DNA of 64,000 bases from Diadema antillarum (taxonomy: Eukaryota): the NCBI RefSeq assembly GCF_040938485.1, contig NW_027271236.1:1984001-2048000 (forward strand), in the 5' to 3' direction. Position 1 is the stretch's first letter; the number at the start of each line of letters is the position of its first letter. Made by a program: the position numbers. Below are positions 3,001 to 6,000 of the stretch, one piece after another.

Positions 3001-6000
3001 CACCCATGCTTGAGGAAAGTTTGCTCCATTCATTTATGCTTCACTGTGAAAAAGAGCTACCTTGGTACAGTCTGAGCTTTGATCTGAGTAGTCCTGCTTT
3101 TTTATGCAATTGTAAATTCAATTCTCTATCGATGACTAAGGGTTCTGTATGTACTGTTGAGGTATTGTTTTTATCTTCCTTGGTGATGTTAGATAGCTCG
3201 TCAACCTCCAGCATGATCAACCCCCTGTCTTCCTTTAATATCTTCTCTGTTCTTTCTCTGTTGCTTTCATTCCTTTTTTCTCCTGTTTTTTGTCTGTTTT
3301 CTTCAAATGGTTCTACTCCTGACCACCTTAGTGTACCATGCCCAGTGCAGTATAGACCCCTATGCTGTCAAACAAGGAATGGTCGCGTGCATTTTAATTT
3401 TGCGAATTTCGTGAGAGCCATAATTCGCGAAATTAAAATGCATGTGAAAGTTCTTGTCTACACTATATGTATTGAATGTTTGAGGCAACTCGCGAAAATT
3501 TGATGCCGCGAAAAAGGCCGTCGGCTCCAATTCACGAAAATATCACGTTTTACAGTACGTCAGTACAGTCAGTAGGTCTACACGTTGTAATGTAGACGTA
3601 GACTCTAGTCACATTTTTTTCTGCGAATAAACCATAGTTCACTGGAGGAAGTCAACAAAAGAAGAAGAAATAACGTCAAGAAGGTAATGTAGGGCAATCA
3701 AAGAAGAAGTGTGATAAATTTACTGATAGATATTTATTACCGGGTACCCATACTGATTAAAGAGAAGGTAAACCCCAAGAGCAATGTGGATTGAGTGAAA
3801 GCAGCAGCATTAGTAGAACACATCAGTGAAAGTTTGAGGAAAATCGGACAATCGATGCAAAAGTTATGAATTTTTAAAGTTTTGATGTTGGAACCGCTGG
3901 ATGAGGAGACTACTAGAGGTTATGACGTATGAGTGGACAACAATACCAAGAAAATATAAAGAAAATTCTGCAAGAATCCATTTTTCATGAAAATTACAAA
4001 TTCCATCAACTTGATATTGACATATGTTAAGGGTAGCAATTATTCCCCCTGCTTTCTGAAAGCGGTTGGTCCATTGCTCTTTCATAATTCTAGAAAAGTG
4101 AATTTTTGTTGAATTTCCTTTATATTTTCTTTGTATTGTTGTCCACTCATACGTCATATCCTCTAGTAGTAGTCTCCTCATCCAGCGGTTCCAACACCAA
4201 AACTTTAAAAATTCATAACTTTTGCATCGATTGTCCGATTTTCCTCAAACTTTCACTGATTTGTTCTACTAATGCTGCTGCTTTCACTCAATCCACATTG
4301 TACTTTGGGTTTACCTTCCCTTTAAAAGTGATCCCCCATCTGTATCACCTCAGCTCATAGAACCTTAGACAGAAAGATCCGTCTGTCCGGAGGACTCTTT
4401 TTATATTTTGCCATTAACGCTGTCCTCCGTAGACAGACGGAAGGTTGCAGTACCCATTGCTGTGTGGATGTTCTTAACCACTGTCTCTATGGAAAATTGG
4501 GTGAGGTACCTCACCCTTCTCGATTGCGTCTAATTCACGGCCCTAGGTCGGCAAATTTAAGCTTGTATAGTGAAATTAGCTCTTTAAAAATACATTAAAC
4601 TCACCAGATTAATGAATAATCCAAGATTTTAGTAGAATTTTCAACGTAAAACACAGCCTGTCAGGTTGTCACGTTCAAACTGCAGAAACATACACTATGA
4701 ATCTATTAGCCAATCACATGCGAGGTACATGTAGTTTCTACGTGTTTGTTTTACTAAAACACGTACCTCGCATGTGATTGGCTTACAGATTCAAAATGGC
4801 GACTTACAGCTTGCGAACGGCGATGTTGTGATATCGATAAAATGTCTGCGTTATAACCGAGTTTATGTGAGTATTTCGATTGCACAATTGAGAAATTTAT
4901 CCCAAATATTGCTGCATAATGTGTCATGTCATGTCAAACTTGTTTGAATGTAAAAAAGCTGTCTGAAATTTGGTTTATCGTAACGTTTGATCTGTGCGCG
5001 ACTGCTCCACACAGGAGCCGCAATCATTGACTTCGGTCTGTATACGGAGGGGATCCGTGAAGCCAGACGCAGTCTCCGCGGAACATTCCCCGACGGACAG
5101 ATACAGACCGATCTTTCGGTCAAATAGAACCTATACTCTAACTATAGGCCTATCAGGCTCAAGTTCTAAGCTAAGTTATCTCAGTTCAGGAAACCCACTC
5201 ACAAGGGGGGCCTCTCCTTATAAGTAACCCGTCCCCCTTATAAGTAACCCCGTCCCCCTTATAAGTAACCCCCGGGGCACCCCTTATAAGGAGTCTCCAC
5301 GCTTTTTTGCAATGCAACGCGAAAATGAAAGGACTGCGGCAATTCGCTTGATTATGTCCATAAAGCTTCACAAGTTTCCTAGTTACTCACGAAATTTGAG
5401 CAAAATCGGTTCGAGGCATCATATCTAAAATCATGGATTTAAATGCGATGTCAAACGACCCATGCGAATGCTGAAATGCGAGCGATTACTGGCGTGAGTG
5501 TCGCCAGGCGCGGCGGCGCGGCAATGCTTGAGTGCAGACGTGGCGACCGAGTACGAAAGTCTCGTACTCAGTCGCCACGTCTGCACTCAAGCATTGCCGC
5601 GCCGCCGCGCCTGGCGACACTCACGCCAGTAATCGCTCGCATTTCAGCATTCGCATGGGTCGTTTGACATCGCATTTAAATCCATGATTTTAGATATGAT
5701 GCCTCGAACCGATTTTGCTCAAATTTCGTGAGTAACTAGGAAACTTGTGAAGCCTTATGGACATAATCAAGCGAATTGCCGCAGTCCTTTCATTCTCCCG
5801 TTGCATTGCAAAAAAGCGTGGAGACTCCTTATAAGGGGTGCCCCGGGGGTTACTTATAAGGGGGACGGGGTTACTTATAAGGGGGACGGGTTACTTATAA
5901 GGAGGGGCCCCCCTTGTGAGTGGGTTTCCCGAACTGATCTAACCATCATCAAGCGCAAAAATCATGTCCGCTCTTGCTGTGGCATCTCTATGGGCAAGAG

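What the first reader, a model, noticed from the sequence alone, without database searches (positions are those of the whole stretch)
5182..5936. Near-perfect 755-bp palindrome (375-bp arms, 5-nt loop) in SLC35D intron 1
Seen: the arms differ at only a handful of positions and the loop is 5 nt. Known: palindromes this tight extrude cruciforms and are unstable, and when transcribed form long dsRNA that is a substrate for Dicer and ADAR. Inference: because SLC35D pre-mRNA passes through it, the intron could yield endo-siRNAs against the whole element family, acting as a built-in silencing trigger.
Basis: partly seen in the sequence, partly recalled or inferred. Interest (0 to 1): 0.65.

Follow-up and report, generated by a model that had tools for sequence, protein, structure and literature searches.

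The report
Young foldback transposon in urchin intron
The near-perfect 755-bp palindrome is real, but it is an ordinary, recently inserted, non-coding "foldback" DNA transposon in the first intron of a sea-urchin sugar-transporter gene, and nothing here shows that it silences anything.

Summary
Window 5182-5936 is a 755-bp palindrome with 375-nt arms, 6 mismatches and a 5-nt loop. It lies in intron 1 of a minus-strand SLC35D2-like gene of a Diadema sea urchin.

It is a mobile element, not a local oddity.
- A second copy at 15537-16626 has the same 25-nt termini.
- Both copies are flanked by 4-bp direct repeats, ATCT and ATTT.
- Each end carries about three 21-bp subterminal repeats with a CTTATAAG core. 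All 14 window hits lie in the two copies, against 1.23 expected.
- None of its frames of 38 aa or more matched Pfam.

Copy 1 equals copy 2 minus 344 bp across the palindrome centre, joined at an ACG microhomology. This fits hairpin-driven deletion.

The window holds at least nine other self-complementary stretches, so this is a normal feature of the genome.

The intronic RNA should fold into a 375-bp duplex (-777.7 kcal/mol). The documented fate of such RNA in sea urchins is ADAR hyper-editing (PMC5625713, PMC9989829). The "built-in siRNA trigger" idea could not be tested and has no support here. The superfamily is unresolved. Interest is low.

The parts
5178..5181 (.). Left flanking direct repeat ATCT (putative target site duplication)
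   Evidence: The same 4 nt occur at 5937-5940 immediately outside the element ends.
5182..5556 (.). Left arm of the foldback element (375 nt), starting with the shared 25-nt terminus CAGTTC...
   Evidence: 6 mismatches of 375 against the right arm. (terminal 25-mer found only at the 4 element ends in the window).
5216..5290 (.). Left subterminal 21-bp tandem repeats (2.8-3.4 copies) with 4 CTTATAAG cores, proposed transposase binding sites
   Evidence: TRF. In one search, 14 of 14 CTTATAAG hits in the window lie inside the two copies, against 1.23 expected. The binding role is inferred.
5557..5561 (.). 5-nt loop (AAGTC), the leftover of a slightly asymmetric centre deletion
   Evidence: The right-arm breakpoint is offset 8 nt from the mirror image of the left one.
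5562..5936 (.). Right arm of the foldback element (375 nt)
5828..5902 (.). Right subterminal 21-bp repeats with 4 CTTATAAG cores
5937..5940 (.). Right flanking direct repeat ATCT
15537..16626 (.). Second, longer family copy (1090 bp). Its arms reach 16012 and 16139, leaving a 126-nt unpaired centre. It is flanked by ATTT at 15533-15536 and 16627-16630.
   Evidence: BLAST identity to copy 1 is 98.4-98.7% for its right arm and 94.5-94.7% for its left arm, which carries a complex indel at about 15753-15763.
6286..6423 (-). Exon 1 of the SLC35D2-like gene (Met1-Lys46), with donor AAG|gtaagt
   Evidence: P0001, E 1e-17, 100% identity. (46 of 46 identical). (donor).
2474..6285 (-). Intron 1 of the SLC35D2-like gene (about 3.8 kb). 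The palindrome starts 349 nt downstream of the donor.
   Evidence: The 3' end of the intron is uncertain by up to 3 bases (2474, 2472 or 2471, depending on the acceptor); see Noticed in passing.
2438..2470 (-). Exon 2 coding part (FPSYQVVGLGQ) of the SLC35D2-like gene, followed by gtgagt

Best explanation
The palindrome is one copy of a young, non-autonomous foldback-type (MITE-like) cut-and-paste DNA transposon of a Diadema sea urchin. It inserted into intron 1 of an SLC35D2-like nucleotide-sugar transporter gene.

Shown by the sequence:
- two dispersed copies share identical termini;
- each copy is bracketed by its own 4-bp direct repeat;
- each end carries about three 21-bp subterminal repeats with a self-complementary CTTATAAG core;
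- none of the frames scanned matched a Pfam family.

Inferred:
- A transposase encoded elsewhere in the genome binds the subterminal repeats, cuts at the CAG...CTG ends and integrates with a 4-bp stagger.
- The 755-bp copy descends from a longer element like copy 2. It lost 344 bp across the tip of the hairpin by slippage or end joining at an ACG microhomology, and the residual asymmetry is the 5-nt 'loop'.
- For the host it is most likely a neutral intronic passenger. It is transcribed with the pre-mRNA, folds into a 375-bp duplex, is probably hyper-edited by ADAR, and is removed with the intron.
For: - Structure.
- Second copy with the same ends. The terminal 25-mer (up to 3 mismatches allowed) has 4 hits in 64 kb, all of them the four element ends, against 0.00 expected.
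- Flanking 4-bp repeats in 2 of 2 copies, ATCT and ATTT. The chance of this is roughly (1/256)^2.
- Subterminal repeats: TRF period 21, 2.6-3.4 copies at all four ends. CTTATAAG occurs 14 times, all 14 inside the copies, against 1.23 expected.
- Non-coding: every stop-to-stop frame of 38 aa or more in 1-19.5 kb was scanned against Pfam (26 of the 84 frames, plus 150 and 87). None of those inside either copy matched a family.
- Deletion relationship: copy 1 equals copy 2 without 15900-16243, with ACG on both sides.
- Not an assembly fold-back: the arms differ at 6 sites, and three of the arm variants are shared with the other copy.
- Genome context: at least nine other self-complementary stretches in the window. 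The D. antillarum genome paper reports 42.84% repeats, of which 29.96% are unclassified (passages, PMC13511894).
- Foldback transposons are known from sea urchins (Lieberman 1983 as cited in PMC4079207, passages).
- RNA fate: 83,594 unique hyper-editing sites in S. purpuratus, and self-folding palindromic Harbinger repeats as the most edited family in Xenopus (PMC5625713, passages). In S. purpuratus 86% of editing sites lie in repeats, and across the species surveyed young repeats are preferred (PMC9989829, passages).
Against: - Only two copies could be examined, because no eukaryotic genome DNA collection was open.
- No autonomous, transposase-coding partner was seen, and no empty site was seen.
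- Both flanking repeats begin with A and end with T. The ends could therefore be TCAG...CTGA with a 2-bp duplication (TC, TT) instead of 4 bp. Two copies cannot decide this.
- The direction of the 344-bp difference (deletion rather than insertion) is inferred from parsimony, not from an outgroup.
- Transcription of the intron, ADAR editing and neutrality are not shown by any data here.
Confidence: 0.88

Rival explanations
1. One reading: the intronic hairpin is a working hpRNA-type locus. Dicer cuts the 375-bp duplex into endo-siRNAs that silence the element family in trans. This would make it a built-in trigger comparable to Drosophila hpRNA loci, or to maize Mu killer (the latter recalled, not read).
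For: A near-perfect 375-bp duplex is predicted on the transcribed strand. It has only 2 unpaired internal positions, because 4 of the 6 arm differences are G-U compatible on this strand. At least one other family copy with 94-99% identical arms exists as a potential target. hpRNA loci that give endo-siRNAs against selfish genes are documented in Drosophila (PMC10317233, abstract seen in the listing).
Against: There are no small-RNA data. The arms are non-coding terminal sequence with no match to any transposase family, so siRNAs would not obviously hit a transposase mRNA. I found no report of hairpin-derived endo-siRNAs in sea urchins in searches, and the main sea-urchin small-RNA paper (Song 2012) is not held. 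The documented response to such RNA in urchins is A-to-I hyper-editing. From general knowledge, editing antagonises dicing. The strand bias of G-U compatible differences (4 of 5 transitions) is not significant (my arithmetic: binomial p about 0.19). Many similar palindromic elements sit in introns here, so nothing singles this one out.
Confidence: 0.1
2. Assembly artefact: a fold-back chimera, or a mis-join of long reads, created a false palindrome.
For: Tight palindromes are a known artefact class of long-read libraries (general knowledge). The window contains one N run (56778-56923), so it is not a gapless sequence.
Against: The arms differ at 6 of 375 positions, and the variants are shared in a structured way with an independent copy 10 kb away. 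The element ends precisely at termini shared with that copy and is bracketed by a 4-bp duplication. The structure is only 755 bp, far shorter than the mean HiFi read of 6.8 kb reported for the published D. antillarum assembly (PMC13511894, passages). Whether the window comes from that assembly is not known.
Confidence: 0.02
3. Local inverted duplication of intron sequence, not a transposition event.
For: Inverted duplications can arise by template switching at replication forks (general knowledge).
Against: The same sequence, with the same ends, occurs at a second unrelated site with different flanks and its own 4-bp duplication.
Confidence: 0.02
4. Exapted cis-regulatory element or insulator. 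The insertion lies 349 nt downstream of exon 1, and its repeated CTTATAAG sites could bind a host factor.
For: It sits close to the 5' end of the gene. It has eight copies of a self-complementary 8-mer.
Against: The same motif array is present in the other copy, so it is a property of the transposon. The element is very young (1.6% arm divergence, below the species' reported 2.52% heterozygosity), which leaves little time for exaptation. No conservation data are available.
Confidence: 0.03

Closest known systems
Foldback (FB-like) transposons: Drosophila FB, Galileo and Tetris, and the sea-urchin TU elements of Strongylocentrotus purpuratus (Lieberman 1983)
   Same: Long terminal inverted repeats make up nearly the whole element. 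There are short tandem sub-repeats inside the repeats, a small or absent non-coding middle domain, length variants produced by internal deletion, and flanking target duplications. They are known from sea urchins (PMC4079207, passages).
   Different: The flanking duplication here is 4 bp (or 2 bp). Tetris has 8-10 bp (read in PMC4079207). From recall, not read, Drosophila FB has 9 bp and the TU elements 8 bp. The sub-repeats here are few (about 3 x 21 bp) rather than long arrays. No sequence comparison with TU elements was possible, because the papers are not held and no repeat library is available.
MITEs, in particular palindromic MITEs such as the self-folding Harbinger repeats of Xenopus tropicalis
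   Same: Short (under 800 bp), non-coding, with TIRs and TSDs, inserted in or near genes, and self-pairing into a tight hairpin with a short loop when transcribed. In Xenopus these are the most hyper-edited repeats (PMC5625713, passages; MITE definition in PMC5199201).
   Different: High copy number, a MITE hallmark, could not be tested. Harbinger makes 3-bp TWA duplications (recalled), which do not fit ATCT or ATTT.
Superfamilies with 4-bp target duplications: Sola (recalled from Bao et al. 2009, not held), Ginger1/Ginger2, piggyBac, Kolobok
   Same: A 4-bp flanking duplication.
   Different: Ginger1 and Ginger2 ends are TGTNR, with CCGG/CCGT or RTATAY targets (PMC2836005, passages). piggyBac has 4-bp TSDs with CC..GG termini (PMC10045372) and the TTAA target (PMC5199201). 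Kolobok's TTAA target is recalled. None fits CAG...CTG ends with ATCT or ATTT. Sola remains possible, but its terminal signatures could not be checked.
Drosophila hpRNA loci (and maize Mu killer, recalled)
   Same: A long inverted repeat that would give a hairpin RNA complementary to a selfish element.
   Different: Those loci are defined by the siRNAs they produce and by de-repression of their targets when lost (PMC10317233, abstract). Neither is known here. Mu killer includes transposase coding sequence (recalled), and this element has none detectable.

Membership tests
Foldback-type non-autonomous DNA transposon (structural class) | Terminal inverted repeats make up most of the element | tested here: met
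   750 of 755 bp are arms. Copy 2 has 964 of its 1090 bp outside the 126-nt centre.
Foldback-type non-autonomous DNA transposon (structural class) | Tandem sub-repeats within the inverted repeats | tested here: met
   Period 21, 2.6-3.4 copies at all four ends.
Foldback-type non-autonomous DNA transposon (structural class) | Dispersed copies with shared termini and copy-specific target site duplications | tested here: met
   2 of 2 copies: ATCT/ATCT and ATTT/ATTT. The 25-nt terminus occurs at the 4 ends only. Only two copies were available.
Foldback-type non-autonomous DNA transposon (structural class) | No transposase gene of its own | tested here: met
   No Pfam family at E <= 0.01 for any frame of 38 aa or more inside either copy.
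Mutator-related foldbacks (Drosophila FB, Tetris) | 8-10-bp target site duplication | tested here: not met
   Flanks match for 4 nt only. The 8 nt on each side differ. Criterion taken from PMC4079207.
Ginger1 / Ginger2 | TGTNR termini; CCGG/CCGT (Ginger1) or RTATAY (Ginger2) targets | tested here: not met
   The termini are CAGTT and the targets ATCT and ATTT. Criteria from PMC2836005.
piggyBac / Kolobok | TTAA target duplication (piggyBac also has CC..GG ends) | tested here: not met
   ATCT and ATTT. The piggyBac termini criterion comes from PMC10045372 and TTAA from PMC5199201. The Kolobok criterion is recalled.
Sola superfamily | 4-bp TSD plus group-specific termini, or a Sola DDD transposase in an autonomous relative | not testable with these tools
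   The TSD length fits if it is 4 bp. No repeat library and no Diadema genome DNA were available, and the defining paper is not held. The feature list is recalled.
MITE | High copy number in the genome | not testable with these tools
   Only the 64-kb window could be searched (2 copies).
hpRNA / endo-siRNA locus | Long inverted repeat predicted to form a hairpin on a transcribed strand | tested here: met
   Transcription is inferred only from the intronic position.
hpRNA / endo-siRNA locus | Dicer-sized small RNAs from both arms, and targets de-repressed on loss | not testable with these tools
ADAR hyper-editing substrate | Clusters of A-to-G mismatches in RNA reads over the duplex | not testable with these tools
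   No RNA-seq. The expectation rests on S. purpuratus data in PMC5625713 and PMC9989829.
Any Rfam RNA family (e.g. a miRNA precursor) | Match at the gathering score | tested here: not met
   0 matches in the whole window, both strands.

The most novel reading that the evidence does not exclude
The foldback keeps its two arms identical by copying one arm from the other. One substitution that separates the two copies is present in both arms of each copy, which a single mutation cannot produce. As an intron-borne perfect hairpin it would also feed Dicer-dependent endo-siRNAs that police its own still-active family. That would be a self-limiting transposon/host circuit in a deuterostome in which no hairpin-derived endo-siRNAs came up in my literature searches.
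Probability: 0.07. Interest if true: 0.55.

Novelty: new member of a known kind. Interest (0 to 1): 0.2.

Why it matters
The significance is modest. It documents an apparently uncharacterised, very young and therefore possibly still mobile foldback transposon family in Diadema, a genus whose repeats are largely unclassified (29.96% of the D. antillarum assembly, PMC13511894). The pair of copies gives a clean natural example of a palindrome centre lost at a microhomology, and a hint of arm-to-arm homogenisation. Such insertions are likely to be polymorphic and could serve as markers. They are also obvious places to look for ADAR editing or small RNAs once Diadema RNA data exist. It does not change what is known about transposon silencing.

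Tried and rejected
- Pfam on long frames. I picked 84 of the 178 frames of 70 aa or more. These were mostly the frames of 85 aa or more. I left out the four frames that overlap the N run, and I missed four frames of 85 aa or more near 52.4-53.9 kb. Together with all 237 frames of 38-84 aa in 1-19.5 kb, this found no transporter domain near the palindrome, because the exons are too short. The gene was only found by searching with exon 1 alone.
- Looking for further family members in the window. BLAST with word size 7 and the 25-mer with 3 mismatches found none beyond the two copies.
- Rfam on the whole window: 0 matches.
- Superfamily assignment from the literature. Ginger, piggyBac, Kolobok, hAT-length and Mutator-length duplications are rejected. 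I could not obtain a table of TSD and termini for Sola, Academ, CMC or ISL2EU. Searches gave no such details, and Bao 2009 and Kojima 2020 are not held.
- Sea-urchin small-RNA literature. Searches gave nothing on hairpin siRNAs in echinoderms, and Song 2012 is not held.
- TU-element details. Searches returned only the Tetris paper as relevant, so statements about TU elements beyond their citation there are recalled.
- An 8-bp (hAT-like) or 3-bp (Harbinger-like) duplication was considered and rejected from the flanks.
- G-U bias on the transcribed strand (4 of 5 transitions) was considered as a sign of selection on the RNA and rejected as not significant.
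Full report
OBSERVATION.
- The repeat finder gives arms 5175-5556 and 5562-5943 (382 nt, 98% complementary, 5 nt apart).
- A base-by-base check finds 8 mismatches in 382. Two of them lie in the flanks.
- Comparison with a second copy fixes the element ends at 5182 and 5936. The element is therefore 755 bp, with 375-nt arms that differ at 6 positions (98.4% identity) and a 5-nt loop at 5557-5561.
- As single-stranded RNA, the minus strand folds into one uninterrupted hairpin of -777.7 kcal/mol. Twenty shuffles give -237.3 +/- 9.4, a z-score of -57.7.
- As DNA, the plus strand gives -502.4 kcal/mol, z -52.4.

ANATOMY.
- Each arm starts with a 25-nt terminus, CAGTTCGGGAAACCCACTCACAAGG. 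With up to 3 mismatches it occurs 4 times in the window, all at the four ends of the two copies, against 0.00 expected.
- About 35 nt inside each end lies a short array of 21-bp repeats, 2.6-3.4 copies at all four ends.
- The repeats contain the self-complementary 8-mer CTTATAAG. All 14 occurrences in the 64-kb window fall inside the two copies, against 1.23 +/- 1.07 expected.
- Nothing in the element looks coding. Every stop-to-stop frame of 38 aa or more in 1-19.5 kb was scanned against Pfam, and the frames inside either copy matched no family.
- Rfam has no match anywhere in the window.

A SECOND COPY, AND WHAT THE PAIR SHOWS. BLAST of the region against the window finds a second element at 15537-16626. 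It is 1090 bp. Its arms extend further inward, to 16012 and 16139, and leave a 126-nt unpaired centre.

Each copy is bracketed by its own 4-bp direct repeat: ATCT at 5178-5181 and 5937-5940, and ATTT at 15533-15536 and 16627-16630. Different flanks, identical ends and copy-specific duplications are the signature of cut-and-paste insertion. One caveat applies. Both duplications start with A and end with T, so the ends could be read as TCAG...CTGA with a 2-bp duplication. Two copies cannot decide this.

A global alignment shows that copy 1 is copy 2 without 15900-16243, a 344-bp stretch spanning the palindrome centre.
- The trinucleotide ACG is present at both breakpoints.
- The right breakpoint is 8 nt away from the mirror image of the left one.
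- Those leftover nucleotides are what now forms the 5-nt 'loop'.
- I read this as a deletion across the tip of the hairpin by slippage or microhomology-mediated joining. The direction is inferred from parsimony, because the extra DNA in copy 2 is itself palindromic.

Copy 1 then transposed, or its ancestor did, since the two copies sit at unrelated sites.

The four-arm alignment shows 3 private changes in each arm of copy 1. It also shows one difference that separates the copies yet is present in both arms of each: T/T in copy 1 and G/G in copy 2, turning one CTTATAAG into CGTATAAG. A single mutation cannot do that. At least once, one arm must have been copied from the other. This rests on a single site.

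HOST GENE AND ORGANISM.
- The minus-strand frame 6423-6286, searched on its own, hits a 335-aa protein that its source names 'solute carrier family 35 member D2-like protein [Diadema antillarum]' (100% identity, PF03151). It also hits a Lytechinus variegatus homologue at 72%. These were 2 proteins with E <= 0.01 among 93 candidates.
- Aligning that protein to the window places residues 1-46 at 6423-6286 (46 of 46), 46-61 at 2473-2429, 57-87 at 1744-1652 and 86-109 at 265-194. The gene then leaves the window.
- Exon 1 ends AAG|gtaagt.
- So the palindrome lies in intron 1, 349 nt downstream of the donor, and is transcribed on the minus strand if the gene is expressed.
- I searched exon 1 alone and located the others by alignment.
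- The window is sea-urchin DNA (Diadema antillarum or a very close relative), not human.
- The N run at 56778-56923 was left untouched.

THE PALINDROME IS NOT EXCEPTIONAL HERE.
- Self-BLAST of the window lists nine further self-complementary stretches: 3757-4325, 8284-8494, 10148-10515, 14799-14958, 29895-30065, 36682-37052, 49265-49655, 55658-55938 and 58117-58504.
- The 3757-4325 stretch (569 bp, 83.6%) lies in the same intron. Others are 10148-10515 (86%) and 14799-14958 (93%).
- There is also a family of about 390 bp with members at about 29.2, 36.7, 42.7, 49.3, 55.6 and 58.1 kb. Several have TTAA-AGGG-type ends.
- The D. antillarum genome paper reports 42.84% repeats, 29.96% unclassified, and 2.52% heterozygosity. 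Its main text has no occurrence of 'transpos', 'palindrom' or 'MITE' (passages).
- What sets 5182-5936 apart is only its youth. The 1.6% arm divergence is below the species' allelic divergence, so the insertion may well be polymorphic.

HOW IT MOST LIKELY WORKS.
As a transposon (inferred):
- A transposase made elsewhere binds the subterminal CTTATAAG repeats, cleaves at the CAG/CTG ends and integrates with a short stagger.
- Foldback forms arise and shrink by internal deletion. The pair of copies illustrates this.

As part of the host gene (inferred):
- The intron RNA folds into a 375-bp duplex in which only 2 positions are unpaired, because 4 of the 6 arm differences are G-U compatible on this strand. 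That is 4 of 5 transitions, which is not significant.
- In S. purpuratus, hyper-editing by ADAR is abundant (83,594 unique sites). In Xenopus, self-folding palindromic Harbinger repeats with short loops are the most edited family (PMC5625713, passages).
- In S. purpuratus 86% of editing sites lie in repeats, and across the species surveyed young repeats are preferred (PMC9989829, passages).
- Editing followed by removal with the intron is therefore the best-supported fate.
- Dicing into siRNAs is possible in principle. hpRNA loci do this in Drosophila (PMC10317233, abstract). I found no evidence for it in echinoderms (searches; Song 2012 not held), and the arms carry no recognisable transposase sequence for such siRNAs to target.

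COMPARISON WITH KNOWN KINDS. Structurally it is a foldback-type, MITE-sized, non-autonomous DNA transposon. This class is known from Drosophila, plants and sea urchins (PMC4079207, passages). That paper also notes that the foldback shape can evolve independently in different superfamilies and that TSD length is the main clue to the superfamily.
- The 4-bp (or 2-bp) duplication excludes the Mutator-type foldbacks (8-10 bp) and hAT.
- The CAG ends and the ATCT/ATTT targets exclude Ginger1 and Ginger2 (TGTNR ends; PMC2836005), piggyBac (PMC5199201; PMC10045372) and Kolobok (TTAA, recalled).
- Sola (4 bp) and, for shorter readings, Academ, CMC or ISL2EU remain candidates from recall only. I could not read their defining papers and had no repeat library or urchin genome to search.
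- I found no paper describing this family or foldback elements in Diadema.

LIMITS.
Copy number, empty sites and the autonomous partner therefore stayed unchecked.
Table S3 of PMC13511894 might list the repeat classes.
- Details of the TU elements, Sola, Mu killer and Harbinger TSDs are recalled, not read.

VERDICT. The object is an ordinary young foldback transposon insertion, and the silencing-trigger reading is unsupported speculation. It is a new member of a known kind, of low interest.

Noticed in passing
window 2438-2479 and 6280-6290 (minus strand): The annotated protein reads ...TNFK|FPSYQ... across intron 1. In the window the canonical donor (AAG|gtaagt) and the canonical acceptor (ttttgcag|A) leave one extra A (2471) before TTT. 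The annotated frame therefore needs a non-canonical junction, or a 1-base difference between this sequence and the one that was annotated. An in-frame acceptor also exists 15 nt further on (tatcag|GTT). This is unresolved, and I made no attempt to correct it.
   Followed up: partly
window 3757-4325: A second self-complementary element (569 bp, arms 83.6% complementary) in the same SLC35D2-like intron 1. Both ends read TTAA followed by AGRGAAGGTAAACCC. It belongs to a different and older family than the finding.
   Followed up: partly
window 10148-10515; 29236-29614; 36672-37061; 42688-43069; 49265-49666; 55613-55977; 58110-58504: Self-complementary MITE-like elements of about 370-390 bp. Several have TTAA/TTTA + AAGGGAT-type ends. 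The last six form one family at 67-88% identity, scattered through the HECT-gene region and beyond.
   Followed up: partly
window 15592 and 16570 versus 5237 and 5881 (approximate): One substitution distinguishes copy 2 from copy 1 in both arms at mirror positions (CGTATAAG versus CTTATAAG). This implies arm-to-arm copying within an element. It rests on a single site.
   Followed up: partly
window 15753-15763: The left arm of copy 2 carries a complex change (21 nt replaced by 10 unrelated nt) that is absent from its right arm and from both arms of copy 1. It gives an internal bulge in that copy's hairpin.
   Followed up: no
window 8534-8749, 9374-9595, 10816-10977 (+): Three exons of an Asterix / PAT-complex subunit gene (PF03669, E 5.7e-10, 4.6e-14 and 1.8e-4). 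It is transcribed divergently from the SLC35D2-like gene, whose exon 1 lies about 2 kb away.
   Followed up: no
window 20199-37824 (+): A HECT-domain E3 ubiquitin ligase gene with an IQ motif near its start (PF00612 at 20199-20534; PF00632 at 33646-33924 and 37351-37824). Copy 2 of the foldback lies about 3.6 kb upstream of the first exon detected. Whether it is inside that gene's transcript was not determined.
   Followed up: no
window 52288-53487 (-): An uninterrupted 399-aa frame encoding a Glu/Lys-rich, coiled-coil-looking protein with a Cys-rich C-terminal part. Its only Pfam hit is weak and below cut-off (RIMB1_N, E 0.0017).
   Followed up: no
window 60777-61055 (+): An exon encoding a BTB/POZ domain (PF00651, E 2.1e-14).
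   Followed up: no
window 18194-18673 and 36094-36418: Tandem repeats: a 169-bp unit x 2.9 (85% matches), and a nested 16/49/82/131-bp array.
   Followed up: no
window 56778-56923: A run of 146 N. It was left as it is, and the frames overlapping it were not translated or searched.
   Followed up: no
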